Origin: a virus
Lineage: Duplodnaviria > Heunggongvirae > Uroviricota > Caudoviricetes
IMG/VR virus record: IMGVR_UViG_3300029288_007064
Reading direction: 5' to 3' (one strand)
DNA: 64,000 bases
Of this stretch, positions 18,653-58,600 are shown in pieces. Position 1 is the first letter of the stretch. Each line of letters starts with the position of its first letter. The position numbers were made by a program, and so were the translations under genes. The notes beneath the pieces were generated by a model. It was not told the DNA's origin. It saw only the letters and a program-made list of their open reading frames with translations, and did not search any database.

Positions 18653-18898
18653 TCACATGTATCCAAGTTCTTGCTCTATTTCTCCGAACACCTTATTATA
18701 TTCTTTTTCATTTTTACGCATAATGTACGCTTCACGTAAAGATGCGATAATAAGACCAACACCTATGACGAAAAATACTATCCCAACACCAAGCTCAATG
18801 ATGCTTTCTGAGATTACAATTTGTTGATAACCCACTACTACAAAATACATCCACAATAAGCAATACATTACATAATCTCTCCATTTATCTCCTAGCAC
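18653..18898 (-). CDS. small membrane protein
   Basis: 81 aa with two TM helices. Confidence 0.35.
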   Translation of the reverse strand: MLGDKWRDYVMYCLLWMYFVVVGYQQIVISESIIELGVGIVFFVIGVGLIIASLREAYIMRKNEKEYNKVFGEIEQELGYM

Positions 18899-25368: not shown

Positions 25369-25506
25369 CCAAATAAATATTCCACCACTTTCAAAAGTAT
25401 ATAAAATCCAATAACTCCTATCATAACTCCTGCCAGTATTCCTCTATAGAATGAATCATTTGAAGAACCAAACTTACTTGCAATTTCTAATGCTCTCTTT
25501 TCTTTT

Positions 25507-33506: not shown

Positions 33507-33752
33507 TTACATCACCTGAGATAATTGATTCAAAAATTTCTTTGGTGGGTCGCCATCTTTATAGTGAGCAATGATATCAAATTGTGCTCTATGCATTTCT
33601 TTCCGTCTTTTTACTACTATTTCAATAACCTTATCAGAGAATCCATATTCGAATTCATTTTTGAATCGTGTAAATAAACTATGGATATCGGCATAATCGG
33701 AGTACTTGCTAGGCAAGTTCTTATATTTTATTTTGATTTGGTATTCTTTCAT
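33507..33752 (-). CDS. hypothetical protein
   Basis: 81 aa; 4-nt overlap with the XPF-like gene. Confidence 0.35.
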   Translation of the reverse strand: MKEYQIKIKYKNLPSKYSDYADIHSLFTRFKNEFEYGFSDKVIEIVVKRRKEMHRAQFDIIAHYKDGDPPKKFLNQLSQVM

Positions 33753-34441
33753 TTTAACACCTCTTTTCCTTCTATGAATGTCATTATTTCTTTTGCTGTT
33801 TTTGGACCGATTCCCTCTAGCTCGCTCAACTCTTTTTCTGATGCCGTCATCAATATTTTTAGACTAGGATATTTTTTTGCAATTACTTTTGCTCTTTTTG
33901 CACCTATTCCAGCTATTGCTGTAAACATGCTAGCGAATCTCTGTTCAAAAGAAAATGAAAGTTTTACTATATCTTTTGGTGAAGGGCATTCTCCAGATTT
34001 TTCACAAATCGCTTTAAGTTTGTATGAAAATTCAGAAGGGGTATCTGTTCGAATAACCTTTATTCCATATTTTTCTATTAAAGAAATTTCTGCACCAAAA
34101 CATTGATGCAATATTGCTCCGGCTTCTTGTTGATTAAATCTCTTCATAGATTTTAATAACTTCTCCCAATTACCTACAATAATAATATAACAATTTTTGT
34201 AGTTGGAAGTGAGATTCAATGCTTGATCGAAAATTCTACCATTCTTTATTGAAGAATAAAAATCTCCAACCGATTTCACTTCTATCGCGATGCCCTTGGT
34301 TTCGTATAAAATGTCCCCAATTAATAATCTTTTGCGTTCCACAACAAAATATTCTTTTAATGCCTCTAACCGCGTTTCGATTATCGAGTTCATTTCTTCT
34401 CGGTCGTCTAAAAATATTGTTGGTTTTTCTTCCTTTTCCAT
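33749..34441 (-). CDS. XPF/Hef/Mus81-family ERCC4 nuclease (short archaeal form) with tandem helix-hairpin-helix
   Basis: 230 aa. ERCC4 motif IFLDDREE...VVERKRLLIGDIL; (HhH)2: IAGIGAKRAKVI and LEGIGPKTAKEI. Confidence 0.75.
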   Translation of the reverse strand: MEKEEKPTIFLDDREEMNSIIETRLEALKEYFVVERKRLLIGDILYETKGIAIEVKSVGDFYSSIKNGRIFDQALNLTSNYKNCYIIIVGNWEKLLKSMKRFNQQEAGAILHQCFGAEISLIEKYGIKVIRTDTPSEFSYKLKAICEKSGECPSPKDIVKLSFSFEQRFASMFTAIAGIGAKRAKVIAKKYPSLKILMTASEKELSELEGIGPKTAKEIMTFIEGKEVLK

Positions 34442-35173: not shown

Positions 35174-37348
35174 TTATATCCACTCATCTAATTTTTGTTG
35201 TGATGTTTTTGCTTTCCATCCAAGTGCTTCATAGATACGTTCTACATTATTATCAATTATTAGTGGCATTTGCTTATTCCAATCAATTTTAAAATCTTCT
35301 GGGAATTTATCATAGAAACCAACTACATTTGTCTTTGGCTTATTCGGTGGTGAAATAACATACGCCCATTTTACCTTTTCCATAGGGTCGAATGTTATTC
35401 CAAGATTATCCATAGAATATTTAATTGCTCTAACATGAATTGGTAAATTTTTATAATCTTCAAACTTTCTAGATACTGATTTTGGTATTCCTATTTCATC
35501 GTACTTTGTGTTTTTCATCATTTCTTCTTTTTCTATTGTTATGTACTTTTCTATATCTTCTTGTGTTTTTTCATCTAATAACATTCTAAACACTTTTTCT
35601 TGTATACGTTTTCCTGCTTTTGGTGTATCTGAACGTACTAATTCAAAACCAGTTACACTTAGAATATCTGCCAATTCTTTTCCATCTTTATAACAAAGAT
35701 AACCTACGTATCTTTTTTTGGCAGATGAAAAGTATATCTTACTAAATACTTTTTCGAACTCGAGGAATAACACATGCTTCTTTATTCCCTTTTGCTTAGT
35801 AAATTCCTCGAATGAATCGTTTATGTGTTTTTGTATTGTTTGTGCTTCTTTTACTACATTTTGTAATTCTTTTTCGTTTGCTTGTATAAATATACTATCC
35901 GTATCCGAAGCTTGTATCTTATATCCTTTCTCTTCTATTTTTTTTATTACAAATTTAATCACTTCTCTTCCCATATATGTTACGCTTTCGGCTGCTTCCC
36001 TCTTATAGAGACGGAATCCTGGATAACCTTGTGCTCCATACGCGGAATTTAATACACATTTTACTGCGTATTGTTTCAAATAATATGAATGATATTCAGA
36101 AGTGTTATATGGATATTTTTTCATTTCTTCTTTATATTTCTTTCTTAATTCAAACAAGTCTTTAATAACCGACGGAATGAGACCTTCCGGTGTTGATTTG
36201 AAACGATGTCCATTACCTATGTCGATATCACCATTCTTATCGTATGATTCCCCTCCGATATTGCAAGAAACGATTATACTCGGGTACAAGCTTTTCATAT
36301 CAAATACTATTACATTTTTATAAACTCCAGATGTAGGCGAATGAACATATGCGCCTTCTATCGGTTCTTCTTGTGTATGTCTTATTTTTGTCGGTAATAT
36401 AATTCCACGTTCTTTTGCTTTTCTTAAAACTAAAGTATCTATTATCATGCTATTTTGTTCTAGCATAGACCACGGACAACCGACCATTCTTCTTAATTCA
36501 TCGAAGTAGTTAATTATAGAAATCTTTTTATCCAATTCTACGATTAACTTTACGTCTTCTAAATTGTAATCAAGAAGTTTTTGTACGTCATTCTCCCACA
36601 TTTCTCCGATAGATTGCTCGTTTTTTATTTTTCCTCTTCCTAGTTCTTTTTGTGCGACGAATTCAAGTGAAAAACTTTCTAGTTGTGTAAATGCAAGTTT
36701 TTTATATGCGTTTTTCAAATCAAATACTATTCTACCTTTTAATCGAATATCATATTCTTCTCCTTTACCTATATATCCTTGCCCGAATCTACATAATTTA
36801 TTTGCATCGATTTTTAACTTTAACATTCTATTAAATAAATACTTCACATCATAGTAGACATGCCAACCCGTTATTAAATCTGGATTAGTTTTTTTAATAA
36901 AATCGAGGAATAACACTAACATGTCTTCTTCGCTTTTACATGCGTATATACTCCATTCTTCCGTTTTCTTGCTTTCTCCTTTCCATGTAAATGTTATATA
37001 TTTTTTTAATTTTGTGTCATAACAACAAATAGAAAGGATTGGTTCTGGAGTGTTTTCATCATCAATAGACATTAGCGTTTCTATATCTAGATAATTTATT
37101 CTTATGTCTTCTTTTGGCATGGGTATTTTTATTCTATCGATAAGGAAGCGTTGCAAATATGGAACATCGGCTTCAAAAGTTATTGGATAATTCTTGCGCA
37201 TATCTCTAACGTCATTTGGCTGTTGTGCTATTACTTTGTTCTTTTTATCATCATAAAAGTATGGTTGGAAATCTCTGATAGTTTCTATTTTACCATTAGC
37301 ATGGAATAATAATATGTCTTTTTGGTTTACTATTTCACAAGTAATCAT
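35174..37348 (-). CDS. polB: family B DNA polymerase with 3'-5' exonuclease domain
   Basis: 724 aa. Exo I YLDIETL; motif A DMKSLYPSII; motif B KCVLNSAYG; motif C ASDTDSIF. Confidence 0.95.
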   Translation of the reverse strand: MITCEIVNQKDILLFHANGKIETIRDFQPYFYDDKKNKVIAQQPNDVRDMRKNYPITFEADVPYLQRFLIDRIKIPMPKEDIRINYLDIETLMSIDDENTPEPILSICCYDTKLKKYITFTWKGESKKTEEWSIYACKSEEDMLVLFLDFIKKTNPDLITGWHVYYDVKYLFNRMLKLKIDANKLCRFGQGYIGKGEEYDIRLKGRIVFDLKNAYKKLAFTQLESFSLEFVAQKELGRGKIKNEQSIGEMWENDVQKLLDYNLEDVKLIVELDKKISIINYFDELRRMVGCPWSMLEQNSMIIDTLVLRKAKERGIILPTKIRHTQEEPIEGAYVHSPTSGVYKNVIVFDMKSLYPSIIVSCNIGGESYDKNGDIDIGNGHRFKSTPEGLIPSVIKDLFELRKKYKEEMKKYPYNTSEYHSYYLKQYAVKCVLNSAYGAQGYPGFRLYKREAAESVTYMGREVIKFVIKKIEEKGYKIQASDTDSIFIQANEKELQNVVKEAQTIQKHINDSFEEFTKQKGIKKHVLFLEFEKVFSKIYFSSAKKRYVGYLCYKDGKELADILSVTGFELVRSDTPKAGKRIQEKVFRMLLDEKTQEDIEKYITIEKEEMMKNTKYDEIGIPKSVSRKFEDYKNLPIHVRAIKYSMDNLGITFDPMEKVKWAYVISPPNKPKTNVVGFYDKFPEDFKIDWNKQMPLIIDNNVERIYEALGWKAKTSQQKLDEWI

Positions 37349-40194: not shown

Positions 40195-41091
40195 TCACAT
40201 CAAATCTGATAACACTTCCAAGAATGCTAAAAAGTTTATACTTTCATCCGCAATAAATGTAGTTCGGTATAATCTTTCTGCTATTTCGATAAGTATTTTA
40301 CTTTTCTTCCTGGCTTCCATTTTTTCATTAAATACTCTATCGAATATATCTTTATATAAGTCTACATAATCTATATTATGTTCTTCTATCAATTGTTTTA
40401 TTTCCACCGTTTTCTTTTGTTTCATTAGTTCCCATATGGAATTAAAAACGCTAATATGTTCTACTAATGTTGATTTTGAAACCTTTCCGTTTTTAATAGA
40501 ATATTGTAAAGAATTTATGGTTTTTCTCAAATCAGGAAACTCACGATTTACTATATCTTTAAGTGCATCTTCCTCATATTCTATTTTCTCTTCCTTACAT
40601 ATTTTAATTAATCTATTTAGTATTTTTACTTTATCAGATGGTTTAAACTCAATAGATACTGTTCTTGAAATTAATGGTTCTATTATTTTATTCTTGTAGT
40701 TTGCAGTTAAAATAAATCTACAACTTCGTGAATACGTCTCCATTAAATTACGAAGAGATTGTTGCGCTTCACCAGTCATTCCGTCTGCTTCATCAAGACA
40801 TACTATGCGGATTTTATTATCTGAAACACATGCAAATGCTTTTATCTTATCACGAACTACTTGAATACCACGTTCGTCTGAAGAATTTAAAATTAAAACA
40901 TTAGACCCTATTTTATTTGCTATTATACGAGCCAATGTCGATTTACCAGTACCAGCTTTGCCATGAAATAACAAATGAGGAAGTTTTTCTTGTGGTGATT
41001 CTATCATGGAAATTATTTGATGCTTTATTGCATCATCTAGAATCATGTCGTCCAATTCTTTTGGTCTCCATTTTTCGCACAAGATATTCAT
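40195..41091 (-). CDS. replication factor C small-subunit-like clamp loader AAA+ ATPase
   Basis: 298 aa. WRPKELDD (RFC box II), PHLLFHGKAGTGKST (Walker A), CLDEADGM (DEAD), ISRTV (SRC-like). Confidence 0.9.
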   Translation of the reverse strand: MNILCEKWRPKELDDMILDDAIKHQIISMIESPQEKLPHLLFHGKAGTGKSTLARIIANKIGSNVLILNSSDERGIQVVRDKIKAFACVSDNKIRIVCLDEADGMTGEAQQSLRNLMETYSRSCRFILTANYKNKIIEPLISRTVSIEFKPSDKVKILNRLIKICKEEKIEYEEDALKDIVNREFPDLRKTINSLQYSIKNGKVSKSTLVEHISVFNSIWELMKQKKTVEIKQLIEEHNIDYVDLYKDIFDRVFNEKMEARKKSKILIEIAERLYRTTFIADESINFLAFLEVLSDLM

Positions 41092-41846
41092 GCCTTCGCC
41101 TCTTCTGTTTTTACCTCTTCATCTACTGTGAACGGTGGACATACATTAGTAAACTTCATTCCGTTCTTTTCGTAGTAAGTTTGCATTGGACCACCTTCCA
41201 TCATGGAAACTTTTATTTTTCCATTTGCATTGGCGAATAGACTTTCAAATCCAGCTTTGAAATAGGATTTTATATTGCCGACTCCAACAATAGATGTCTT
41301 TTCTACAAAATAATCCATTTTTCTATCACCAGAGCAAATATAAAGTTGCCCGTCTTTTATTCCAACTTCGTATATGGAATCCTTTCCTATTGCACCCGCA
41401 TTTGATATCGCATCTTGGAATAACTCAACATTTATATCAAACGTGTGTGTATATGGAATTGTTTTTGACATTTTAGCAACTTGGACATAATCCTTAGCTG
41501 GCATAACAAAATATGCTTCTTTTTCCCCAGCTTTAATAAGCAAGCGGTTATCTTGCGTTGCTACAGTAATCTTTTTCTTGAACCTTCCTAAATATCCAAT
41601 AAGTTTTACAATATCTATCGTAGATATGAATTCTTCGGGTTGTCCTTCAAAAGATGAAATAATCGCTTTTGGCATCTCTGCTTTTACCATTCTAGTCACT
41701 TCTGGGTTTTTAGCAGAACAAACCAAACCATCGGGAGAATATTCTATAAGAATTTCGACTATTTTCCCGTCATCACTACCCTTTATACCTTCGAGGTATT
41801 CCACTAGTGTTTCGACATCTATGTTAAATTTCATTTCAATCACCAT
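41088..41846 (-). CDS. PCNA-like sliding clamp (candidate)
   Basis: 252 aa, the size of a two-domain PCNA, between RFC and primase with 4-nt overlap. No decisive motif by eye. Confidence 0.5.
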   Translation of the reverse strand: MVIEMKFNIDVETLVEYLEGIKGSDDGKIVEILIEYSPDGLVCSAKNPEVTRMVKAEMPKAIISSFEGQPEEFISTIDIVKLIGYLGRFKKKITVATQDNRLLIKAGEKEAYFVMPAKDYVQVAKMSKTIPYTHTFDINVELFQDAISNAGAIGKDSIYEVGIKDGQLYICSGDRKMDYFVEKTSIVGVGNIKSYFKAGFESLFANANGKIKVSMMEGGPMQTYYEKNGMKFTNVCPPFTVDEEVKTEEAKA

Positions 41847-42887
41847 TTATACGTACACATTATGATTACAATCTTTGAAAAAACAAAAACCATTTTGCAC
41901 CAAAGTTTGATGCGAAGGGAAGAACCAATCATCACCCTTCTTCCTATAAACGTATTCCAATTGATTTTCACATTTCTTTCCATTGTACCTCTCATGTATT
42001 TTTCCTACACAATGATAATATTTTTCTGATATCAAATATTTCTTCAGAACACTATCTATCATTTTTAATGTATAACCCGTTTCCATCAAATATGTAATAA
42101 TGACTCCTCTCTCCCTGTGATTAGGGTTCCCCTTTTTTAAATGGTACGCAACACACTTGGGGAGGGAGGATAAAAACTTGTCATCTTTAACTTCCGCAAT
42201 AACATCTTCATTTACTTGAGCATTTTGCAAGTTATTCGTAAAGAATTTGGAATAACCTTCTAGTTTCAATAATTTTTCTCCTTCTATTTTATAGGATTTA
42301 CGCTGTTGTTTTGCTATTTCAGAGATTTGTTCTTCTGAAAGAGACAGCAATTCGTCACCGGAGAGTGGAATAGCATACCTCATACGTTTTGTATTCAGAG
42401 TAAAGGGTATTGTTGCTATTCGTGCTAAATCACCTACTACTTGGTGGTCTACGGTCACATCTAATTCTTTTTCCAAATAAAATTGGAATCCTCTTAATTC
42501 TGTTTTATCTGTAGTTTCTTCTGTAAAAACGTAAATATGAAATCCCTTACCGGAAAAAATAACTACATGCTTTATATTTCTTTCTATGAGCCACTTGTGG
42601 ATTTTTCTTGCGTTGGAAATGCCGTCATCCAAATCTATGAAAACAGACGTTATGCTAGGTGTTCTGTTTTTGTCATGATAATCATATACCGTTGCAAAAC
42701 AACGTGTTGTTCCATTTGTTTTGTTTATTAAATCCGATAACTCATTCATATTATTTACTTTGATTCTGTACGGGCGAGCGAATTCCCGTGGAAATTTATT
42801 ATAAAGTATCTTTAGTAGCCCCATCTTCCTTCCCCTCCTCTTCAAGCAAATCTTCGTCATCTGTCCAATGTGAACACGTTTCTGCAT
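41847..42887 (-). CDS. archaeo-eukaryotic primase (AEP) superfamily primase / PrimPol-like with C-terminal Cys/His cluster
   Basis: 346 aa. Motif I VFIDLDD, motif II SGKGFHIYV, motif III HQVVGDLARIATIPFTLNTK. Start may be an internal Met (42824 or 42749) because of overlap with the next ORF. Confidence 0.7.
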   Translation of the reverse strand: MQKRVHIGQMTKICLKRRGRKMGLLKILYNKFPREFARPYRIKVNNMNELSDLINKTNGTTRCFATVYDYHDKNRTPSITSVFIDLDDGISNARKIHKWLIERNIKHVVIFSGKGFHIYVFTEETTDKTELRGFQFYLEKELDVTVDHQVVGDLARIATIPFTLNTKRMRYAIPLSGDELLSLSEEQISEIAKQQRKSYKIEGEKLLKLEGYSKFFTNNLQNAQVNEDVIAEVKDDKFLSSLPKCVAYHLKKGNPNHRERGVIITYLMETGYTLKMIDSVLKKYLISEKYYHCVGKIHERYNGKKCENQLEYVYRKKGDDWFFPSHQTLVQNGFCFFKDCNHNVYV

Positions 42888-43115: not shown

Positions 43116-44000
43116 CTATTCTCCCAACGGTTTTAGTTCTTTTATTTTATCAAAAGTTAATTCTTCAATTGGTGTTGTAGGTGGTCTCCTTATTCCACAT
43201 TTTTCACATACTGCTATATATTTTCCATTTGATTTCTTCATATTAAAAATTAAATCAGAAGAGAAAGGAATATCTTTTTGGCATCTAATTTTTTCCTTAT
43301 TCTGTGCAAGAGCATTCCCTACTTGATATTCAGGTACGGACTTTTCTCTTGCTGTGAATACTACAAAAATTCCTTTCTTAACAAGAGAACGTAGTATTCT
43401 TACTATACCATCATGTTTATTTGTAGCTACTTTCCAGTCGAGTTGACTCAATACTGTTTGCATATCAGCATCAGCACGTGCTTCTCCTTTCTTTGTTCGC
43501 ATAGTTGATAATTTATCAAACATATAAGCCATGCACCATCCCCAACAATCAGTTACACTATCAATTACTAATGTTCCTCCTTTTATTTTTCCACTATTTA
43601 CCGCCTTTACATAAGATGAAAGAAAATCCGTTAAGTTATTTATGCTAGCAACTTCATCAAATATATCATCCATGCTTCTATTTACATTCTCTTTTATTTC
43701 TGTTGGTTCAAATACATATATTTTCTTTCCTTTATGAAGCTGTTTAGTATTAATTGCTCTGTTTTCTGTATCAATAACAAATATAGGTTCCTGGAATGTA
43801 AATGCAGTAAAAGTTTTTCCTGTAGCGGTATCCCCGTACAAAAGAGTAACAAAACCTCTCTTCTTTACATCTTCTTCGGTTATTTCTTCAAACCCTTCGT
43901 ATGTAAATGGATCATCAGAAACTTCTTCTTTCTTTGGTAAAGAAGAAGGAGAAGAAGATGGAATTTTTATTCCATCAAGTACTCCTACCATACTTACCAT
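43116..44000 (-). CDS. RecA-superfamily P-loop ATPase (Sak4/AAA_24-like or DnaB-core-like; exact family unresolved)
   Basis: 294 aa. Walker A LLYGDTATGKTFTA; Walker B-like TLVIDSVTD; C-terminal CEKCG zinc ribbon. Confidence 0.5.
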   Translation of the reverse strand: MVSMVGVLDGIKIPSSSPSSLPKKEEVSDDPFTYEGFEEITEEDVKKRGFVTLLYGDTATGKTFTAFTFQEPIFVIDTENRAINTKQLHKGKKIYVFEPTEIKENVNRSMDDIFDEVASINNLTDFLSSYVKAVNSGKIKGGTLVIDSVTDCWGWCMAYMFDKLSTMRTKKGEARADADMQTVLSQLDWKVATNKHDGIVRILRSLVKKGIFVVFTAREKSVPEYQVGNALAQNKEKIRCQKDIPFSSDLIFNMKKSNGKYIAVCEKCGIRRPPTTPIEELTFDKIKELKPLGE

Positions 44001-45010
44001 TCTCCTGTTACCTTAGTTGGCTCTGCTACTTCCTCGTTTTTCTTTACGAACTCCGGAGATAACCAATAAAGTATAGAATTTGCTGCGATACTTTTAGTTT
44101 CTGCATTATATCCAGAAATTTCGCAAAGAATATTTATAGAATAATTTTCAACTATTCTTTGTCCATTCAATGTTTGTGCATATACCTTTATTTGAGATAT
44201 TGTATCAAAATCTGGGGTATCTAAGGTTATCTCATATTTCTTATCATCACCAACATCCCCTCTTACGTTTTGCACTAGGAAGTTTTTTAACAAAACCCTA
44301 GAGTTTTTGTTATCTTTTATTTTAATTAATTCATCAAAACTTCCTTCTTTGCTATAATCTATTGTCAAAACATCTTTGCAAAATAGTTCTGAAATAGTTG
44401 ATATTTCTTCTGGTTTTGCTTTTTCTAGAACCTTTGCATCGTTTCCATACAATTGATAATACATTTTATTTTCTGTAGACCACTTAGTTATTTTTTGTGC
44501 TCTAACAACTATCTCGTGTCCGATAATTATTTTATTTGCTATTTCTGGTAACCGTATTTCTAAATCTACTGGGATTATCTTACCATTTACATTCGTAACG
44601 CAATAAAATATCGCTTTAAAATCTTGTGTGGGGATTACTTTTCCTGCCCTTTTTGCATCGGTATATAAGTAATTTCCCTCATCATCTATCATTCCAAGAT
44701 TTATTGCTTCTTCTTTTCCTTTACTAGATATTACTCTTTTTATTTTATCACGACTTTTTTTTGCCCAATCAATGGATGTAGAACCCAATACTATTAATGA
44801 AACATTCTCAATTCCTTGCCTAGTTTTCAATTTCAAAGAAGACCTTGTTCTTTCATACGCTCTCTCTTTAATGACTTCTTCGGGTGCTTCAATAGTTTCC
44901 TTTAGAGTTTTAAAATTTTCCTCAAAAAGCCCCGTTACTTCCTCAAAATTCAATCCGGTTTTCTGGGCTAGCGCCCTCAACTTTTCATTCATCGTATCAC
45001 CGATTAACAA
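43994..45010 (-). CDS. hypothetical replication-cluster protein, possible OB-fold ssDNA-binding protein
   Basis: 338 aa; first gene next to the iteron region; beta-rich repeated segments. Weak call. Confidence 0.3.
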   Translation of the reverse strand: MLIGDTMNEKLRALAQKTGLNFEEVTGLFEENFKTLKETIEAPEEVIKERAYERTRSSLKLKTRQGIENVSLIVLGSTSIDWAKKSRDKIKRVISSKGKEEAINLGMIDDEGNYLYTDAKRAGKVIPTQDFKAIFYCVTNVNGKIIPVDLEIRLPEIANKIIIGHEIVVRAQKITKWSTENKMYYQLYGNDAKVLEKAKPEEISTISELFCKDVLTIDYSKEGSFDELIKIKDNKNSRVLLKNFLVQNVRGDVGDDKKYEITLDTPDFDTISQIKVYAQTLNGQRIVENYSINILCEISGYNAETKSIAANSILYWLSPEFVKKNEEVAEPTKVTGEW

Positions 45011-45124
45011 TAGTATTCGCTTACCTTATTTAAATACTTTGTGGTACTCCTTTTTGTTTATAAATCTACGTTAATTTAGTATTTTTAAAACTCCACTTTC
45101 TATAACTAATTTATGCAATCTTTT

Positions 45125-45336
45125 CTTCGACGTGAAATTTAATTTCTACGACGTAAAAGTTTAAATTTTAAACCAAAACATCAAAAAATATTTTTCTACC
45201 GTCGTGAAATTTGGTTTAAAAAATAAACCACGAACACGGAAATATAAATTCACCGTCGTGACGGTTTAAAAATTAAACCACTTTTGCGAAAAATAAAAAT
45301 TTACCGTCGTAAATTCCGGTTTAAAAATTAAACCGG
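45125..45336. repeat. iteron array: four ~51-55 bp direct repeats, each with a CCGTCGTGA-type box and a GGTTTAAAAATTAAACC palindrome (putative replication origin)
   Basis: Palindromes centred near 45166, 45221, 45271 and 45326. CGTCGT boxes at 45128, 45148, 45200, 45253 and 45303, with another at 45494. Lies between divergent replication genes and the plus-strand block. Confidence 0.7.
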
Positions 45337-45578
45337 ATATCAACACCGCTATTTTATACTAACTATAACGAATAGGCAAAGGTTTAAGAAACCTTGTGAA
45401 AACAAAGATTTAAATAACTTTGCAAAGAAGAATTATTGAAACTATTATTTTGTTGAACACGTTTCTACCGCCATGTTTTTGGCGACCAAAATATTCACTG
45501 TCGTAAAATGTCGGAAAAAGCAAAGGATTAAAAAGAGGGACTACCTAATATAAGAGATTGGAAGAATAGGTGATTGGA

Positions 45579-45749
45579 ATGGGTCCGAAAAAATGTACTT
45601 TTTGTGGAAAAGAATTAAGATATAAAGATGGGATTTTTTGTAAAACTGATTTAGAATGTAAAAAAGTAAGAGCTCTTGAAACTATTGCGGATAGACTCCT
45701 TTCTATTGAATGTATTCTTGAAAATATTTATAATACATTAGAAAAATAA
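45579..45749 (+). CDS. zinc-ribbon protein
   Basis: 56 aa MGPKKCTFCGKELRYKDGIFCK...; preceded by AGGTGATTGG SD-like sequence. Confidence 0.35.
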   Translation: MGPKKCTFCGKELRYKDGIFCKTDLECKKVRALETIADRLLSIECILENIYNTLEK

Positions 45750-45767
45750 ACTTCAATAATTATTAAG

Positions 45768-45989
45768 GTGATTAGAATGGAAAACAAAGAATGGAGAAAA
45801 ATAATTTATGATGATTATGGTAGAGCTACTCCCAAAAGTGGTATATTTGTTCGAGAAGATACCGATTTCGTCTACTTAATGACAAATGAAGAGAAAAATA
45901 TAATAGAAGCAATTCAGAAAAAGAAAATAGTTCGAATGGAAATTAGAATGGATGAAACATCTTCCAAAGAAGGTGAGCGGGATGTCTAA
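45768..45989 (+). CDS. small hypothetical protein
   Basis: 73 aa. Confidence 0.3.
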   Translation: MIRMENKEWRKIIYDDYGRATPKSGIFVREDTDFVYLMTNEEKNIIEAIQKKKIVRMEIRMDETSSKEGERDV

Positions 45990-47349
45990 CTATGATGTGT
46001 TACTAGATGCTTATATAAAGTTATTCAAAGAAAGAGTAGCACTTAGTGAGCGTCTTATCAAACCGTATCTTCATGTCTTTCTTGGTCAAGCATTGTGTAA
46101 TTATACTCGAACAGATTCAAATAAAAAGAAAGAATATTATTTTAGAACATCAGGTTACTATTCCGCAATAGGAGAAACTATTGTTTCTAATCGTATAAAT
46201 ATTTTTTCTTATCAATCAACAGGAACCGGAAAAGGAATCGTAATGAAATTTAATCGTACTTTATTCGATGCGTATGGAATATCTTCTATTTATGCAGATT
46301 CTTCTGTTAGTTCACAATGGCTTAAAGGAGGCAATGATACGCAAAGCAAACAAACAAAATGGATCGATGGCACTCTACAAGGATATCATTGTGTAATGTG
46401 GTCAGAAGGAGAAAATATTGTTCAGCCAAACAAACAAGAATATGGAGATTTTGGTACGACTTTACGTTCCGTATTGGATGAACCTGGAGAGTACTCTTTC
46501 GGAACAAGAAAGGATTTAAATAAAGACGGAACTTCACCTATTTTTTATACGAACGCTAGTATCTGTTCAGCCGCTATCATTAATCAAACAACGCTTAATA
46601 ATTCCATCCTTAGTAATGGTACTCTTCAAAGGTTTCTATTGACTTATAATTTACTTTCAAAAGAAGAAAGTGCAAAACTAAGAGACGAAATAGATAATAG
46701 AGATGCAACGACCAAATATTATAATGAAAAAGAAGAAGAATTAAAAAAGTTTTGTGATATAGCAAAAGGAATCATTACACCATTAAAAAATAAAAACGAC
46801 CATTGGAACAAAATAGGTTTTAATTTATCTATCATGAAAGACTATTCGAGAGGAAGAAGGGAAATTGAAGATAAAATTTTAGAGCAATTTCCAGATGGCG
46901 AAAAACAAAATTTAATGCAAGGTTTTTTCAATAGAAACATTATGTATGATAAAAAAATAGCTAGTCAAGTCGCAATTATTAACGGATGTTCGGAAATAGG
47001 TTTAGATGAGCTTAAGATAGGGACAGAAATTGCTATAAAAGGAATGGATGCAATTTCATCTTTATTTACAAAAAAATATCTACCTTCGTTAGATAAAGAC
47101 GACGCAGTCCGTTTGCTTATTATTTATAACGCAATCGAACTTATTACGCAAGAAGGCAAAGTTCCTACGCAAAGTAGACTTGTTTTTGCTTTGCTAAATT
47201 TATTTAAAAAGGATTGGGATTTAGGAGAGAATAGAACTAAAGACTTTCTTACAGATTTAGTTGCGGGAAAGTATCTAATTTTAAAGAAAGGCGAGAGAAA
47301 CGCAAATATTTATCAAGTTCCTCTCACGGCAGCAAATAATCCATCATAG
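45952..47349 (+). CDS. candidate replication initiator: divergent AAA+-like protein with C-terminal winged-helix-like region (likely start at ATG 45982)
   Basis: 465 aa. Degenerate Walker A QSTGTGKG, Walker B-like VLDEPGE about 85 aa later, sensor-1-like FYTNAS. Flanked on both sides by repeat-rich non-coding regions. Confidence 0.35.
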   Translation: MKHLPKKVSGMSNYDVLLDAYIKLFKERVALSERLIKPYLHVFLGQALCNYTRTDSNKKKEYYFRTSGYYSAIGETIVSNRINIFSYQSTGTGKGIVMKFNRTLFDAYGISSIYADSSVSSQWLKGGNDTQSKQTKWIDGTLQGYHCVMWSEGENIVQPNKQEYGDFGTTLRSVLDEPGEYSFGTRKDLNKDGTSPIFYTNASICSAAIINQTTLNNSILSNGTLQRFLLTYNLLSKEESAKLRDEIDNRDATTKYYNEKEEELKKFCDIAKGIITPLKNKNDHWNKIGFNLSIMKDYSRGRREIEDKILEQFPDGEKQNLMQGFFNRNIMYDKKIASQVAIINGCSEIGLDELKIGTEIAIKGMDAISSLFTKKYLPSLDKDDAVRLLIIYNAIELITQEGKVPTQSRLVFALLNLFKKDWDLGENRTKDFLTDLVAGKYLILKKGERNANIYQVPLTAANNPS

Positions 47350-47367
47350 ATAAAATCGTAGAACTTC

Positions 47368-47686
47368 CAGTTATTTAATTTTTAAGCCAGTTATTTACTA
47401 GTTCTATGGGCACGTTCTACGTCGTTAAATTTCAGTTATTTAAATAACTAAACTATATAAAAAACACCGTCGAGCGCCAACCTTGATTTCTCGGTATACA
47501 ATCCACAAATACAAGCGTGTAAACAAGATATTCACGTCTGAGAACTAGGTAATACAAGAACCGTGTAACTAGTTTTTTTATATCTCCTTATAGTTGTTTA
47601 TAAATAACTAAATAACTGGCATGTTTTCACGACGTAAAACTAAGAAAAAACCACCCTTAAATAACTGTAAATAACTAAATAACTGA
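47368..47686. repeat. non-coding region with about 9 copies of AAATAACT/AGTTATTT in two inverted clusters, a perfect 16-bp palindrome AGTTATTTAAATAACT (47434-47449) and inverted ACGTCG boxes
   Basis: Left cluster AGTTATTT at 47369, 47389 and 47434. Right cluster AAATAACT at 47602, 47610, 47659, 47669 and 47677. CGTCGTTAAA at 47420 versus CGACGTAAAA at 47630. Confidence 0.65.
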
Positions 47687-47863
47687 TTAAACGGTCGCAA
47701 ACGCCCTTTTTAGCGTACTTGCCTTATTTTAATAGTGGATTAGGGACACCCTAAGATAATCGAAATTTACCCCCTTGTAGGCGGTGTAGTTTAGGTTAGA
47801 ACCTATTTTCAGGATTAGATTATATCACTATAAAAAGAAAGAAAAAGAAGATAAAGAAGGAAT

Positions 47864-48406
47864 TTACTCCTTCTTCATGGCATCTGCACGCTCACGTGCT
47901 TGCTTTGCCTTGGCTTCGTATTTCGCTGCAATCTTGTTTCTCCTATCTGCAGCATCCTCTAGTTTCTTTGCCTTGTCGGATTCGCGCTTTGCCTTGTTCT
48001 TAGCACGCTCCTTTGCCTTGGCTTCCTTTTCTGCCTCACGCTTCTCCTTGCGCTCCGCTCTCGCTGCCTTATTGGATGCACCGAAAACAAGAACTTTGGA
48101 ACCGTCCTTATTTGCTTGCTCCACATCCGCCCTAAGCTGGTCAAAAAGGTCTCCTCTCAGCATCGACTTAATCTTGGAAGCGTACTGGTTGGTCAACACC
48201 TTACCTTTCAATTCGTCTTTAAGGTCTTCCGTCAAAACGCTTTTCCCGAGCCTGCGGTTCTTGTATGGACGCCCTGCCCTTTCCTCAAGATACCGCGCCA
48301 TATCCTTTTTCTCGGCGTCAGACATCTTTACTTCCTCGCCCATCCTCATTTTTACGAGGAACGGCTTCACTTTCTTTCCTATTGCTTCAAATTCTTGGTC
48401 ATTCAT
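47864..48406 (-). CDS. highly charged Lys/Glu/Ala-rich protein (possible nucleic-acid-binding)
   Basis: 180 aa. C-terminal half is a KEKREAEKEAKAKERAK-type low-complexity helix. TTTAAATA element 27 bp upstream. Confidence 0.4.
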   Translation of the reverse strand: MNDQEFEAIGKKVKPFLVKMRMGEEVKMSDAEKKDMARYLEERAGRPYKNRRLGKSVLTEDLKDELKGKVLTNQYASKIKSMLRGDLFDQLRADVEQANKDGSKVLVFGASNKAARAERKEKREAEKEAKAKERAKNKAKRESDKAKKLEDAADRRNKIAAKYEAKAKQARERADAMKKE

Positions 48407-48576
48407 TGGTTTTCACCATTAAACTTCTAGATGGCAAGGATTTAAATAAGAGTAGGTTTGAAAAAGCAAAGATTTAAATATATCCTAATCGTAAAGGGGC
48501 GAAAAAGTAGAAAAAATCGAATAATTTATGAGAAAAATAAAAATTAGATGAAATAACAAAGGCACTATATTCGATG

Positions 48577-48825
48577 TTATTGCGTTAATGAATCCGCTTT
48601 CTTCGTCACCCTCCTAGCGAATTTAAGGGCTTCTTGCTTAGTGGTAAAGATTACATCATCCCAAGTACGAATGGTGCTTCTGAAAACCACAATATAGTAT
48701 GTTTTTCCGTGATAAAATATGTTCTCCGACCAAACGTTTTTGAACGGCGAAAAATAAAAGGGCTTGCTATGCTTGCCTTCGGAACGTATTTTATCTTCTA
48801 GTTCATAATTTGGTAGTCTAGGCAT
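48577..48825 (-). CDS. small hypothetical protein
   Basis: 82 aa. Confidence 0.3.
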   Translation of the reverse strand: MPRLPNYELEDKIRSEGKHSKPFYFSPFKNVWSENIFYHGKTYYIVVFRSTIRTWDDVIFTTKQEALKFARRVTKKADSLTQ

Positions 48826-48827
48826 TG

Positions 48828-49010
48828 TTATTTCACCCCGTCATATTCATTCAAAACTTTATTTTTAGCAACCAATTTTGCTTTTGCTCCCACTCTTTTG
48901 TGTGTCATTTCATAAACAAATTGTTTCCATTTGTCTTCGACTTCTTTTGTTGAATGCCCCCATGCTAGAACTTTCTGTCCGCGTATAGTTACGACGTATG
49001 TATTTATCAT
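48828..49010 (-). CDS. small hypothetical protein
   Basis: 60 aa. Confidence 0.3.
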   Translation of the reverse strand: MINTYVVTIRGQKVLAWGHSTKEVEDKWKQFVYEMTHKRVGAKAKLVAKNKVLNEYDGVK

Positions 49011-55606: not shown

Positions 55607-58600
55607 TCAATCTTTCTTTCTTCTTCTAGCAAACCACAAATAACCTATTATTATTATTGCGCCGAAGCCAAATACCGGACAACACAATTGCTTTTCTTCC
55701 ATGCCCGTCAATATTTTTTCCACGGTTATTGCTACTGTGTTTCCAAAACTTGTAATTCCATCTATGCTCGCTATCGGAAGTGCGGGTAATTCTATTTCTA
55801 TCGATTCTTCTTCTGACACTTCCTCGGTTTCATTCGCACCTACTCCATCTTCTTCACCTATACCTGCTCCTCCACCACCTCCTTCGCCCATATCTATTCC
55901 TTCCACGGTTATAATATATGTTAAAGAAGAAACCGTTACAGAAGCATTATCAATTATTTCAAAGTGATACGGATAAACACCCGCCACAAATGCATGATTA
56001 TATGTGCAATTATTAGCGGTATCAACACAACTATCGGGATTAAATGTATGTCCTTCTAATGTAATAAGGAGAGGCATATCTATTCCATACGGGTTATAAT
56101 ACTCTGCCTCAAATGGTACAGGTATTCCATCACCCCAAGTTGAAGTGTGTGGAGTAGCATTTATTAATTGCGGGAAATAATAAAATGTATAATTTCCAAC
56201 ACTTAAATTTGTTCCGGTTGTAGAACAATTCATACTAACTATAGTTGGACCTAATGTTGTTCCGTTTATCGTATAAATATGTGTTCCGTTAGTGGTATAT
56301 ATAACAGTGTTATTTAAGATACCATCTACATAATAACTACACAAATATGTGCTATTGCTTCCATTTACATAGAAAGTTACATTTGTAGAATTGTTAAAGT
56401 AATATGAATTATTGAGTGGTCCAACATATGAGAAATTTATATACAAGAAGTTAGATACCGAATCGCTTCCTATGTTGTTTGCCGTATCATTAGCCCAAAT
56501 TGTTATATTGTTTGGTCCTTCTGCTAATATAGCCGTAAAGTTATTACATAAAGGTATCGTGGTATTTGTACCGCCGTTTAATGAATACCAACAATAATCT
56601 ACTCCTAATGCGCTAAATGCAGTATAATTTATTGACGTCGTTGTTCCGTTATAAATATAATCTTCTATTGGTATAATTATTGTTACCACTATGGGAGTTC
56701 CATTAATCTCCATAAGCCATGCAGAAGAATTTATACAATATGCTCCATCACAACTCTCTATTACAAATGAATAATTTCCAGATGCTAAAGATGGACTAGC
56801 AGTAATGTTGTTTAAAGTGTTATTAAGAGACGTTGTATTTATTCCATAACTTGTTCCGTTAATAAACAATTCTCCGGTTGAAACACTATTCACCGTATTT
56901 GTAATATTATATTCCACGGTTGGAGTACTATCATTTAAACTAGTGTTATTCGCTTGCGAATCTATACTAGTTATGTTAATAGTTGGAATAACATAACCAA
57001 TCGTAAGGTTAGTAGAATTTCCTGTTCCTGAAGTTCCTACAATATTTGAAGTGTAAGCAGAGCACGAATAATTTGTCCAAAAATGTAGTCCTTCTGAATA
57101 CAAAACGGTATCGTTTATTGTCCATCCACTATGTTGATTAAGATATGTTGCATTATACGCATCTATTATTGTTCCGTTCTCATAATAGAAGAATGTTACG
57201 TTTATTCCCGCTCCTATTGCATCGTAAATTGTTGCATTACAAGTAAGATTAGTTGGAGCATATATTGGTGTTCTATCTGCGGAAATACTTACATTCGGAG
57301 TGTTCGGAATACCCGCATACGTTTCTTGCCATTGTAATGAAACATTCGTGCTTATTACATCAGTACAATTCACAGTAAAGTTATATGTTACTCCATATGG
57401 AAGAGTTTGATTAATTGTAATGTTTGTAGAAGTATAATTCGTGGTGCTATTCCATCCACTAGCAACTCCATTTACATAAACCGTACAATTAAGTGTCGTA
57501 TTATCTGCATCATGAAAAATAAATTCTACGTTTGGTGTTTGGTCTGTAATTGTAGAAGCATTAAGTTGACTATCTATATGTGTTATGTTTATTCCACTTG
57601 GACCATAGTTATTATTATTCGTGAGTGGCAAATAATCAATTTCTCCAACGCTTACAATATAAGTTGCTGTATTTCCAATGCCATCTCCATTCGTATCCCA
57701 TCCATTGTAATTACTCCAATAATTACCACCTATGTTTGAACCTCCAATGATATTAGTTATAAGAACGTTGGTAGTATTCCAAAAATTATTTATTCCTACA
57801 TTATTTGCTACTCCTTGTATTCCGTATGCTGTGAAATTATTGTTATAGAAATAACAATTATCATTATTAGATACTAATTGGTAATCTACATTATTATAAA
57901 TCGTATTATTAGCATAAACAATATCATTCGCTCCTGCCATAAGTCCTGCTAGAGTATTATTATATGCGGTATTATTGAATATGGTACTAGTTGTTCCTCT
58001 AACGGAAAGACCATAGTTAGCGTTATTGAATATCACGTTTAAGGAAACGTTTGCTGATGATTCAATATCTATTCCAGTTGTTGAACCATATGCGGTATTA
58101 TTAGTCACATTATTAAAACTTCCTTGTACATAAATTCCTGTTCCCGTGCTATATACTAGATTGTTTTCTATTTTAATAAAATCTGAATCGGTAGCAGTCG
58201 TTATTCCGTATGTAGTATCTCCAAATGCAACATTGTTAGTCACATTGTTTAAAGTGCTATTCCACACATAAATACCATAAGTGTTGCTTGATAGAGTATT
58301 ATTATTAATAGTATTATAATCGCTTTCTTTAATTCTAATTCCATTTGTAAAATCTGTTATATGACATTCTTGAATAGTGTTGTTTTCTACCAAATAAGAA
58401 TAAATACCATATGTAGCTGCTGCATCATTTCCATCTATCCAATAACTATTACAATCAATAGTTATTCCACTAGCGTTCATAGTAAGGCAAGTTATTCCGC
58501 TTCCATCAAGATTAGATAAAAGATTTGCATTAGAATTAACATATCCACAACCATAATAGTTAAAAGTTCTATTAGAACCATTGTAATATGTTCCAGAAAA

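What the first reader, a model, noticed from the sequence alone, without database searches (positions are those of the whole stretch)
47350..47863. Second repeat-rich non-coding region: inverted clusters of AAATAACT around a central AT-rich core, with a perfect 16-bp palindrome
About 510 bp without a convincing ORF carries roughly nine copies of the 8-mer AAATAACT.
- On the left (47369-47449) they read AGTTATTT; on the right (47602-47685) they read AAATAACT, i.e. mirror-symmetric.
- The perfect palindrome AGTTATTTAAATAACT sits at 47434-47449.
- Tandem TAAATAACT x3 with 9-10 bp period lies at 47658-47686.
- Inverted CGTCGTTAAA (47420) and CGACGTAAAA (47630) boxes match the box type in the 45.1-kb iteron array.
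Inverted recognition boxes flanking an AT-rich core is the layout of archaeal ORB/DUE origins. Alternatives are a partition (centromere-like) site or a packaging signal.
Together with the 45.1-kb array it brackets the candidate initiator gene. The GC-richer tail (47690-47850) could hold a small ncRNA, but I see no tRNA-like cloverleaf.
Basis: seen in the sequence. Interest (0 to 1): 0.7.

Follow-up and report, generated by a model that had tools for sequence, protein, structure and literature searches.

The report
Iteron origin beside viral mini-MCM gene
The repeat-rich gap is real and is most likely the replication origin of an uncultivated, probably archaeal virus: two opposed sets of short protein-binding repeats directly after the gene for a stripped-down MCM-type helicase, a layout that related viruses keep while each uses its own repeat sequence.

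Summary
AAATAACT occurs 19 times in the window against 7.65 expected. Nine copies lie in 47369-47684, left ones inverted, right ones direct. Only the "AT-rich core" fails: core GC is 34.2%, the window average.

The decisive evidence is comparative. Two relatives, whose neighbouring protein is 46-48% identical, carry the same architecture directly after the orthologous gene:
- three inverted iterons, a box, and an inner pair of iterons that forms a palindrome;
- a core of about 150 bp;
- two direct iterons, a box, three direct iterons.

Left-arm spacing is conserved (20-11-34-8 bp). The motif is lineage-specific: GGTTTCCT in one relative, GGTTTTTCG in the other. Two more distant relatives have their own motif clusters next to the gene.

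The adjacent 465-aa protein is not Orc1. It is a mini-MCM: an SF6 AAA+ helicase with a C-terminal winged helix (AlphaFold2 pLDDT 92; the top 50 Foldseek hits listed are all MCM2-7).

Best reading, with confidence 0.6: a virus-specific iteron origin that recruits this helicase in opposite orientations. It is not a sequence member of the ORB family. No ncRNA, ORF or tRNA was found. This is a new variant of a known kind.

The parts
45952..47349 (+). Gene for a 465-aa mini-MCM: an SF6 AAA+ helicase core with a C-terminal winged helix and no OB/Zn N-terminal domain. The public gene call starts at M11 (45982).
   Evidence: In a 75-sequence alignment, K94 (Walker A), E152 (Walker B) and G223/R227 (LQRF, Arg-finger-like) are invariant and Q226 is nearly so. 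A profile search against PDB gave archaeal MCM 4fdg_B as best hit, E=9e-6. Among 75 family members, 15 hit Pfam DUF3987 and 6 hit MCM. The AlphaFold2 model has pLDDT 91.9. The top 50 Foldseek PDB hits listed are all MCM2-7 subunits, probability 1.0.
45768..45989 (+). Small 73-aa ORF directly upstream in the same operon. A small ORF holds this position in relatives. It is an alternative candidate for the iteron-binding protein.
   Evidence: ORFs of 58-90 aa precede the helicase gene in L001, L003, L005, L014, L015 and L032. Six of them were aligned; they are only 13-33% identical and not reliably homologous. No family match was found.
47369..47376 (-). Iteron L1 (AGTTATTT on the plus strand)
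47389..47396 (-). Iteron L2
   Evidence: The 20 bp to L1 equals the spacing in L002 and L003.
47400..47407 (-). Degenerate iteron L3 (AGTTCTAT, 2 mismatches)
   Evidence: It lies 11 bp after L2, the position where L002 (1641) and L003 (4531) have an exact copy.
47414..47429 (+). Left box GTTCTACGTCGTTAAA (CGWCGTNAAA type)
   Evidence: (D3). A related box sits at the equivalent place in L003 (CAACGTAAAAG). L014 has CTACGACGTTAAAC at 4914, on the minus strand.
47434..47449 (.). Perfect 16-bp palindrome formed by iterons L4 (minus) and L5 (plus)
   Evidence: The same head-to-head pair occurs in L002 (1675-1698) and L003 (4564-4579).
47450..47601 (.). 152-bp core or spacer. It is not AT-rich overall. 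An A6 run lies at 47459-47464 and a T7 run at 47573-47579.
   Evidence: GC is 34.2%. The cores are 143 bp in L002 and 156 bp in L003, both with 42% GC. RNA fold z-scores range from -1.8 to +1.2 on either strand. Sequence shared between lineages does not exceed chance.
47602..47617 (+). Iterons R1 and R2, head-to-tail at 8-bp spacing
   Evidence: D13. The same 8-bp tandem pair occurs in L002 (1842, 1850) and L003 (4736, 4744).
47624..47639 (.). Right box TTTTCACGACGTAAAA, two-fold symmetric
   Evidence: It matches CGWCGTNAAA on both strands. It is 88% identical to the upstream-array box at 45143 (D3).
47659..47684 (+). Iterons R3, R4 and R5, with spacing 10 and 8 bp
   Evidence: D12. Triples at 9-11 bp spacing occur in L002 and L003.
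47851..47878 (-). Terminator-like hairpin followed by a T-rich tail, belonging to the convergent gene 47864-48406(-). It is not part of the iteron element.
45122..45313 (+). Upstream array of the same box type, with GGTTTAAAnnTTTAAACC palindromes, on the other side of the helicase operon
   Evidence: (D1, D3-D5)

Best explanation
47369-47684 is the cis-acting replication origin, or at least the helicase-recruitment site, of this virus.

Proposed anatomy:
- Two arms of five 8-10-bp iterons, each with one conserved box, face each other across a spacer of about 150 bp.
- The iterons are read by a virus-encoded specificity protein. The most likely reader is the C-terminal winged helix of the mini-MCM encoded immediately upstream.

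Proposed mechanism:
- Helicase oligomers assemble in opposite orientations on the two arms.
- They open or encircle DNA at or next to the spacer.
- They hand over to the neighbouring archaeal-type replisome: a PriS-like primase, PolB, a PCNA-like clamp and an RFC-like clamp loader.

Shown here:
- The repeats exist and are enriched.
- The architecture and spacing are conserved in relatives.
- The motif is lineage-specific.
- The element is linked to the helicase gene.
- The protein has an MCM fold.

Inferred, not shown:
- That the element is an origin.
- That loading is head-to-head.
For: (1) Enrichment is far beyond composition.

(2) The architecture recurs after the orthologous gene in two lineages whose protein is 46-48% identical. 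Spacing of iteron starts:
- Left arm: 20-11-34-8 in the window, 20-11-34-8 in L002, 20-11-33-7 in L003.
- Right arm: 8, then a box gap, then about 10 and 8-10.

(3) All copies changed together in each lineage: AGTTATTT, GGTTTCCT, GGTTTTTCG. The rest of the element shares no more k-mers between lineages than chance gives. This is the signature of sites co-evolving with a cognate protein.

(4) More distant relatives also have private motif clusters beside the gene.
- L014 (35% identity): GCGATTTTAA, with 8 of the locus's 9 copies in the downstream gap.
- L032 (27% identity): ATAAACTG. 17 of 19 copies lie in a 740-bp non-coding stretch, arranged as opposed arrays around a centre that is more AT-rich than the rest of the locus. 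Two more copies lie at the helicase stop codon.
- Four of the five motifs share an rGTT core: CAGTTATTTA, CAGTTTATCG, TGGTTTCCTG, TGGTTTTTCG. The L014 motif does not.

(5) The element follows the helicase gene whatever comes next. In the window and L002 the next gene is convergent. In L003 and L014 it is co-directional and unrelated. In the convergent cases it therefore cannot be a promoter or operator for flanking genes.

(6) The neighbouring protein is an MCM-type AAA+ with a C-terminal winged helix. The residues at the start of the predicted recognition helix differ between lineages (ENRTKD, RDATAE, FHKTRE) while the flanks are conserved.

(7) The gene sits at the end of a replication module: PolB, an RFC-like loader, a PCNA-like clamp, a PriS-like primase and a Sak4-like ATPase.

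(8) There is precedent.
- DUF3987/SF6 phage helicases carry a C-terminal wHTH and are proposed to be replicative (PMC4889955).
- The pRN1 origin lies within the 166 bp downstream of its primase-helicase-winged-helix gene (PMC4234260).
- P4 alpha has the same helicase plus winged-helix design (PMC2777425).
Against: - There is no experimental or marker-frequency evidence of initiation here.
- The spacer is not AT-rich, and no conserved unwinding element was found.
- Cumulative GC skew shows no inflection at the site other than that caused by the three plus-strand genes.
- Winged helices of cellular MCMs are not known as sequence-specific origin readers (my own knowledge).
- The small ORF upstream in the operon could equally be the specificity protein.
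- The window's Walker A reads GTGKG, without the usual Ser/Thr. Its Walker B reads SE, not DE.
- Six other family members sampled (L005, L013, L015, L033, L034, L035) show no comparable cluster within the flanks held.
- The box-bearing upstream array could be the true origin, with this element an accessory site.
Confidence: 0.6

Rival explanations
1. It is an origin of the cellular archaeal type. The iterons would be mini-ORB-like sites for the host's Orc1/Cdc6, which then loads the viral mini-MCM. The lineage-specific motifs would reflect different hosts rather than co-evolution with a viral protein.
For: Inverted recognition sites next to a replication gene resemble archaeal oriC, and in Thermococcales two repeat clusters bracket the initiator gene (PMC1904270). 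The virus looks archaeal: the best PolB hits are haloarchaeal tailed viruses, and it carries XPF, Thg1, PCNA-like and PriS-like genes. No Orc1/Cdc6 match was found among the window proteins scanned, so a host initiator would be needed if the helicase cannot load itself.
Against: The iterons are 8-10 bp and lack the TTCC...GAA mini-ORB core. The motif cluster stays beside the helicase gene even when it lies upstream, as in L032. Viruses sharing one sample (the window and L002, both from ERZ27247363) use different motifs.
Confidence: 0.08
2. It is a centromere-like partition site or a copy-control (handcuffing) site. The iterons would bind a viral protein that pairs or segregates genomes of a plasmid-like prophage, rather than starting replication.
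For: Short repeats of two kinds arranged around a central bend site, directly downstream of the gene of the binding protein, are also the layout of P1 parS (my own knowledge). A second box-bearing region lies 2.3 kb away, which would allow looping.
Against: No ParA, ParB, ParM or ParR match was found among the ORFs scanned. The linked gene is a helicase inside a replication module.
Confidence: 0.1
3. It is a packaging (pac/cos) recognition site. Terminase small-subunit binding repeats would flank a central cleavage region.
For: Repeat clusters on both sides of a cut site are known for P1 pac and lambda cosB (my own knowledge). The same protein lies at different offsets in different assemblies, so the genome may be circularly permuted.
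Against: No terminase match was found among the window ORFs scanned. Pac sites usually lie in or beside terS (my own knowledge), whereas this element follows the helicase gene in five lineages.
Confidence: 0.07
4. It is a transcriptional element. The repeats would be operators around a small non-coding RNA or primer RNA transcribed across the core and ending at the T7 run, or simply an elaborate bidirectional terminator region.
For: TATA-like sequences lie at both core edges (CTATATAAAAAAC at 47454; TTTTTTTATATC at 47573). A T6-7 run ends the core in all three close lineages.
Against: - Rfam found nothing at E<=1.
- Core fold z-scores are -0.4 to -1.8 on the plus strand.
- Core sequence is not conserved beyond chance.
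- In the window and L002 the flanking genes converge, so no protein gene needs a promoter here.
Confidence: 0.08
5. It is a replication fork trap. Two opposed sets of polar sites would bind a contra-helicase protein and stop forks, as Ter/Tus sites do.
For: Two opposed groups of oriented sites form the formal layout of Ter regions (my own knowledge).
Against: No Tus- or RTP-like gene was found. Fork traps are not known to be tied to the helicase gene. The sites here are tandem at 8-10 bp, which suggests cooperative assembly rather than single polar barriers.
Confidence: 0.03

Closest known systems
Archaeal oriC: ORB or mini-ORB repeats in inverted orientation around an unwinding element, next to orc1/cdc6
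   Same: Oriented recognition repeats lie on both sides of a central stretch, adjacent to a replication gene. A second repeat cluster lies on the other side of that gene, as in Thermococcales (PMC1904270).
   Different: - The repeats are 8-10 bp, not 13-36 bp, and lack the TTCC...GAA core.
- The neighbouring gene is an MCM-like helicase, not Orc1/Cdc6.
- The central stretch is not AT-rich.
- The motif is specific to each viral lineage.
Satellite phage P4: alpha protein (primase, SF3 helicase, C-terminal winged helix) with its ori and crr iterons
   Same: A helicase carries its own C-terminal winged helix (PMC2777425). From my own knowledge, P4 has octamer iterons in two cis regions that bracket the alpha gene.
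   Different: - The helicase here is SF6 (MCM-like), not SF3.
- The primase is a separate AEP protein.
- The two cis regions here share only the CGWCGT box, not the iteron.
Plasmid pRN1 of Sulfolobus: origin within the 166 bp downstream of orf904 (primase, SF3 helicase, winged helix)
   Same: The origin lies immediately downstream of the gene for a helicase with a C-terminal winged helix (PMC4234260, PMC2777425).
   Different: The essential element of pRN1 is a 100-nt stem-loop, not an iteron array. Here the fold-back potential is only what the inverted repeats themselves give (z = -2.4).
Polyomavirus and papillomavirus core origins (large T antigen or E1)
   Same: From my own knowledge: short recognition motifs in opposed orientation direct two hexamers of an initiator-helicase to assemble head to head.
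   Different: - Those helicases are SF3 with an N-terminal origin-binding domain.
- Those origins span about 64-100 bp without a 150-bp spacer.
- Nothing here shows double-hexamer formation.
DUF3987/SF6 phage helicases
   Same: They are distantly MCM-related AAA+ proteins with a C-terminal wHTH, encoded next to AEP primases and proposed as replicative helicases (PMC4889955). One PriCT-DUF3987 protein was shown to be a 5'-3' helicase (PMC11724360). 15 of 75 family members hit DUF3987 weakly.
   Different: The window protein itself matches neither DUF3987 nor MCM in Pfam at E<0.1. The papers read describe no cognate origin for DUF3987 proteins.

Membership tests
Archaeal ORB/DUE origin | Repeats carry the ORB or mini-ORB consensus (13-36 bp, conserved TTCC and GAA cores) | tested here: not met
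   TTCCNNNNGAA has 20 matches in the window and none in 47350-47863. The iterons are TAAATAACT(G/A). The consensus is taken from PMC1904270.
Archaeal ORB/DUE origin | An adjacent or cognate Orc1/Cdc6 initiator binds the repeats | tested here: not met
   No Orc1/Cdc6 match was found among the window proteins scanned against Pfam, NCBIfam or PHROGs. The adjacent protein has an MCM fold. Binding by a host Orc1 cannot be tested here.
Archaeal ORB/DUE origin | An AT-rich duplex unwinding element lies between the inverted repeats | tested here: not met
   Core GC is 34.2% against 34.8% for the window. In L002 and L003 it is 42% against 32-36% for the locus. The least stable segments lie at the core edges and only in the window.
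Iteron-type viral or plasmid origin | Multiple copies of a short motif, statistically enriched and clustered in non-coding DNA | tested here: met
Iteron-type viral or plasmid origin | The cluster lies next to the gene of a replication protein that has a DNA-binding domain | tested here: met
   The mini-MCM with a C-terminal winged helix ends 20 bp before the first iteron. The linkage recurs in L002, L003, L014 and L032.
Iteron-type viral or plasmid origin | The iteron sequence co-varies with the cognate protein between related replicons | tested here: met
   Five lineages carry five different motifs, and four of the motifs share an rGTT core. The start of the recognition helix varies between lineages. 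Which protein reads the iterons is not shown.
Iteron-type viral or plasmid origin | The element supports initiation of replication in cis | not testable with these tools
   This needs a replication assay or marker-frequency data. GC skew is uninformative because nearly all genes lie on one strand.
MCM / SF6 helicase (the neighbouring protein) | AAA+ core of the MCM type: Walker A Lys, Walker B Glu, Arg finger | tested here: met
   K94, E152 and R227 are invariant in 75 sequences. The top 50 Foldseek PDB hits listed are all MCM2-7, probability 1.0, E from 1e-10 to 4e-9. Caveat: Walker A reads GTGKG and Walker B reads SE in the window protein.
MCM / SF6 helicase (the neighbouring protein) | N-terminal OB-fold and zinc-finger domain of canonical MCM | tested here: not met
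   Only about 65 helical residues precede the AAA+ core in the model. Hence 'mini-MCM', closer in design to DUF3987 proteins (PMC4889955).
MCM / SF6 helicase (the neighbouring protein) | Passes the Pfam MCM (PF00493) or DUF3987 (PF13148) threshold | tested here: not met
   The window protein has no Pfam hit at E<0.1. Among family members, 6 of 75 hit MCM and 15 of 75 hit DUF3987, all with weak E-values.
Rfam RNA families / tRNA (for the core and the tail) | A match to a covariance model, or a cloverleaf | tested here: not met
   cmscan at E<=1 gave 0 matches over 44000-49000. ARAGORN found 0 genes.

The most novel reading that the evidence does not exclude
This would be the first defined origin for the MCM/DUF3987-type (SF6) helicases of prokaryotic viruses.
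- The origin would be self-loading.
- Each arm offers five iterons plus one box, six sites in all, to the six winged helices of one mini-MCM ring.
- Two rings would then be templated in opposite orientation without any Orc1/Cdc6 or Cdt1-like loader.
- A simple code, read from recognition helix to iteron, would drift in concert in each viral lineage.
Probability: 0.3. Interest if true: 0.75.

Novelty: new variant of a known kind. Interest (0 to 1): 0.55.

Why it matters
How MCM-type helicases get onto DNA without the ORC, Cdc6 and Cdt1 machinery is an open question for viral and plasmid MCMs. The papers read here describe no cognate origin for DUF3987/SF6 viral helicases.

This locus offers a compact system that can be tested directly:
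- one 465-aa protein;
- a 320-bp DNA element with a clear grammar;
- at least three natural 'specificity swaps' (AGTTATTT, GGTTTCCT, GGTTTTTCG).

These swaps allow domain-swap and site-swap experiments. The locus also gives a practical signature for locating origins in uncultivated viruses: a mini-MCM gene next to opposed arrays of a private motif.

If the element is instead a partition or packaging site, the finding is of ordinary interest.

Tried and rejected
- **DNA similarity to known phages.** blastn of 44900-48500 against 50,697 phage records found nothing. tblastn of the 465-aa protein also found nothing.
- **Relatives in IMG/VR.** Two protein scans found none. The exact 18-mer TAAATAACTAAATAACTG gave 15 isolated chance hits without clusters.
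- **Relatives or proviruses in 185,579 GTDB genomes.** Two scans found none, and two alignments were too divergent to search with. The host remains unknown.
- **Profile search of the 5.8-billion-protein set with the 75-sequence alignment.** The candidate cap limited it to 5 hits.
- **Structured RNA in the core or the tail.** Rfam, ARAGORN and fold z-scores were all unremarkable. The tail is not conserved.
- **Conserved sequence islands in the core (AAAACACC, GGTGTGAC).** A shared-k-mer test showed no excess over shuffles, so I dropped them.
- **MITE or transposon ends.** Rejected: there are no other copies in the window, and the element has diverged in place next to the same gene in the relatives.
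- **attP arm-type sites.** No integrase match was found among the ORFs scanned.
- **First AlphaFold2 run with 4 sequences.** Unusable, pLDDT 48. It was rerun with 75 sequences.
- **The 338-aa divergent neighbour (43994-45010).** No family or PDB match.
- **M. thermautotrophicus mini-ORB consensus.** I could not retrieve it. A remembered resemblance (TTACAGTT...) is left untested.
Full report
**1. The observation**

The stretch 47350-47863 lies between the stop codon of a plus-strand 465-aa ORF (45952-47349) and the stop codon of a convergent minus-strand ORF (47864-48406). It holds no ORF longer than 34 aa.

AAATAACT occurs 19 times in the 64-kb window against 7.65 +/- 2.74 in dinucleotide shuffles. 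Nine copies lie between 47369 and 47684:
- minus strand: 47369, 47389, 47434;
- plus strand: 47442, 47602, 47610, 47659, 47669, 47677.

In 1000 dinucleotide shuffles of the 514-bp region, the commonest 8-mer never reached 9 copies. All nine copies share the longer form TAAATAACT(G/A), which the ten scattered copies elsewhere mostly lack.

The box CGWCGTNAAA has six matches in the whole window against 0.41 expected, and all six lie in the two non-coding regions that flank the helicase operon.

The one descriptor that fails is the "AT-rich core":
- GC of 47450-47601 is 34.2%, the window average.
- The thermodynamically weakest 30-bp stretches are at the two edges of the core, not inside it.

**2. 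The neighbouring protein**

The 465-aa protein has no Pfam, PHROG or NCBIfam match. It has only four relatives in the 5.8-billion-protein set.

An exhaustive profile search found a family of 272 cluster representatives, mostly 400-460 aa. In a 75-sequence alignment the following positions are conserved:
- invariant: the Walker A lysine (K94), a Walker B glutamate (E152), G223 and R227 of a G..LQRF motif;
- nearly invariant: Q226 of that motif and D176 of a DEPG motif.

Evidence for the fold:
- The profile's best PDB match by sequence is archaeal MCM (4fdg_B, E=9e-6), covering the P-loop and the lid plus winged-helix region. Isolated winged-helix domains also match.
- 15 of 75 members weakly hit DUF3987 and 6 of 75 hit the MCM P-loop domain.
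- With this alignment AlphaFold2 gave a confident model (pLDDT 91.9).
- The top 50 Foldseek matches listed in the PDB are all MCM2-7 subunits at probability 1.0.

The model has about 65 helical residues, then the AAA+ core, a helical lid and a C-terminal winged helix. It has no OB/zinc N-terminal domain. It is therefore a "mini-MCM" of the SF6 class. In design it resembles the DUF3987 helicases, which Kazlauskas et al. described as distantly MCM-related, carrying a C-terminal wHTH and probably replicative (PMC4889955). One such protein has been shown to unwind DNA (PMC11724360).

Caveats: in the window clade the Walker A reads GTGKG, without Ser/Thr, and the Walker B reads SE.

**3. Genomic setting**

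The gene closes a replication module:
- PolB (35174-37348);
- two DNA methyltransferases;
- an RFC/gp44-like clamp loader (40195-41091);
- a PCNA-like clamp (41088-41846);
- a PriS-like AEP primase (41847-42887);
- a Sak4-like ATPase (43116-44000).

Elsewhere the window encodes an XPF-type ERCC4-HhH2 nuclease, a Thg1-like enzyme, ankyrin repeats, an SNF2 helicase, a radical-SAM enzyme and many glycosyltransferases.

The best PolB matches among 50,697 phage records are haloarchaeal tailed viruses (E=8e-72, against 3e-47 for cyanophages). The element is thus probably an uncultivated archaeal tailed virus, but no host could be identified.

**4. Comparative evidence, which decides the matter**

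Two lineages whose mini-MCM is 46-48% identical (L001/L002/L010 and L003/L004/L011) have a non-coding stretch of about 530-610 bp directly after the orthologous gene. They share the window's architecture but carry a different motif: GGTTTCCT/AGGAAACC in L002 and GGTTTTTCG/CGAAAAACC in L003. In both, the motif is essentially confined to that stretch.

Reading left to right, each element has:
- three inverted iterons;
- a gap of 33-34 bp containing a box;
- a head-to-head iteron pair that forms a palindrome;
- a core of 143-156 bp;
- a head-to-tail pair at 8-bp spacing;
- a gap of 31-49 bp containing a box;
- three direct iterons at 8-11 bp spacing.

Left-arm start-to-start spacings are 20-11-34-8 in the window (counting the degenerate copy at 47400), 20-11-34-8 in L002 and 20-11-33-7 in L003.

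Between lineages the elements share no more k-mers than shuffled sequences do, and blastn finds only three short islands. Architecture and spacing are therefore under selection, while the motif has been replaced in concert in all ten copies. This is what protein-binding iterons co-evolving with their reader look like.

What follows the element differs between lineages: convergent genes in the window and L002, unrelated co-directional genes in L003 and L014. The element therefore travels with the helicase gene. In the convergent cases it cannot be a promoter or operator for its neighbours.

More distant relatives extend the pattern:
- L014 (35% identity) has GCGATTTTAA in 8 of the locus's 9 copies in the downstream gap. 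The copies are arranged as dyads, with one box almost identical to the window's.
- L032 (27% identity) has 17 of 19 ATAAACTG copies in a 740-bp non-coding stretch just upstream of its operon. The left half is mostly inverted. The right half is mostly direct and includes 8- and 10-bp tandems. The centre is more AT-rich than the locus. Two further copies lie at the helicase stop codon.
- Four of the five motifs share an rGTT core: CAGTTATTTA, CAGTTTATCG, TGGTTTCCTG, TGGTTTTTCG. The L014 motif does not.
- Six other family members show no such cluster within the flanks held, so the association does not hold across the whole family.

**5. Mechanism**

The best-supported explanation is a virus-specific origin, or helicase-recruitment site. 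Two opposed arms of five iterons plus a box recruit the mini-MCM in opposite orientations on either side of a spacer of constrained length. The AEP primase, PolB, clamp and loader encoded next door then take over.

The most economical reader of the iterons is the helicase's own C-terminal winged helix, as in P4 alpha and as proposed for pRN1 ORF904 (PMC2777425). The pRN1 origin likewise lies just downstream of its gene (PMC4234260). The first residues of the predicted recognition helix differ between lineages (ENRTKD, RDATAE, FHKTRE) while the flanks are conserved.

This step is inferred.

The box (consensus about TTTnACGWCGTAG/CTACGWCGTnAAA) is conserved in the window, L003 and L014, and diverged in L002. 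It also recurs in the upstream array. It probably binds a second, more conserved factor, or serves as a bend or pairing site.

**6. Rivals**

- A host-Orc1 ORB-type origin is weakened by the absence of the mini-ORB core (PMC1904270). It is also weakened by two different motifs occurring in viruses from one sample.
- Partition and packaging sites have similar formal layouts. They lack any supporting gene among the ORFs scanned and do not explain the linkage to a helicase gene.
- An RNA gene or transcription unit in the core has nothing behind it beyond TATA-like edges and a T-run.
- A fork trap is formally possible but unprecedented in this context.

**7. Comparison and novelty**

The element works like an iteron origin and is laid out like an archaeal oriC or a papovavirus core origin. 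It is not a member of the ORB family by sequence, by initiator or by unwinding element.

The combination found here was not described in the papers I could read:
- an SF6 mini-MCM;
- two five-iteron arms with a conserved box;
- a 150-bp spacer;
- lineage-private motifs.

I rate it a new variant of a known kind, with interest 0.55.

Noticed in passing
window 45100-45340 (also L001 1930-2080; L012 1-140): The upstream divergent intergenic region carries units of about 50 bp. Each unit has a CGWCGTRAAA box followed by a GGTTTAAAnnTTTAAACC palindrome. Relatives have repeated GGTTTATAAACC or GATTTATAAAC in the same place, but L003 has no obvious equivalent. These sequences look like archaeal TATA boxes or operator dyads. 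They may be promoters or operators of the helicase operon, or a second cis-replication region.
   Followed up: partly
window 45412-45419: A single exact TAAATAACT lies in the upstream intergenic region, about 150 bp before the first plus-strand ORF. About 0.07 copies are expected there by chance. It could be an autoregulatory site.
   Followed up: no
window 46222-46236 (residues 91-95 of the 465-aa protein): The Walker A motif reads GTGKG in the window, L002 and L003 proteins, with Gly where P-loops normally have Ser/Thr. The 25%-identity clade has the canonical GTGKS. The window's Walker B reads SE instead of DE. It is not clear that ATPase activity is intact.
   Followed up: partly
L001 2343-2909: A GIY-YIG endonuclease gene (188 aa) is inserted between the small ORF and the mini-MCM gene in one relative. 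It is probably a homing endonuclease.
   Followed up: no
window 33749-34441, 4189-4953, 13874-14491, 20001-21506, 7913-9028, 18892-20004, 24349-26637: The virus carries an unusual cargo:
- an XPF-type ERCC4-HhH2 nuclease;
- a Thg1-like tRNA-His guanylyltransferase with an RlaP-like nucleotidyltransferase next to it;
- an ankyrin-repeat protein;
- a B12-binding radical-SAM enzyme;
- four GT4 glycosyltransferases, plus UDP-glucose dehydrogenase and GDP-mannose dehydratase-like genes.
   Followed up: partly
window 47864-48422: Two almost fully overlapping antiparallel ORFs occur here: 180 aa on the minus strand and 181 aa on the plus strand. The minus-strand product has a Lys/Ala/Glu-rich tail built from 21-bp-like repeats (D2). 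Only the minus-strand ORF is called in the public record.
   Followed up: no
L005 5340-5560 and 6040-6240: The contig of a distant family member has dense inverted CTTTATATA/TATATAAAG units with a period of about 46 bp. They lie in two non-coding regions 4 kb upstream of its mini-MCM gene. They could be promoters or another kind of origin.
   Followed up: no
L034 675-1517: An eRF1/aRF1-like release-factor gene lies 1 kb upstream of a mini-MCM family member on a viral-looking contig.
   Followed up: no
L032 3817-3834: Two further copies of that lineage's iteron (ATAAACTG, 10 bp apart) lie at the stop codon of its mini-MCM gene. Its iterons therefore bracket the operon.
   Followed up: partly
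window 55607-63382: A 2591-aa ORF with a DUF2341 domain fills 7.8 kb. The GC skew flattens across it, unlike the rest of the minus-strand genes.
   Followed up: no
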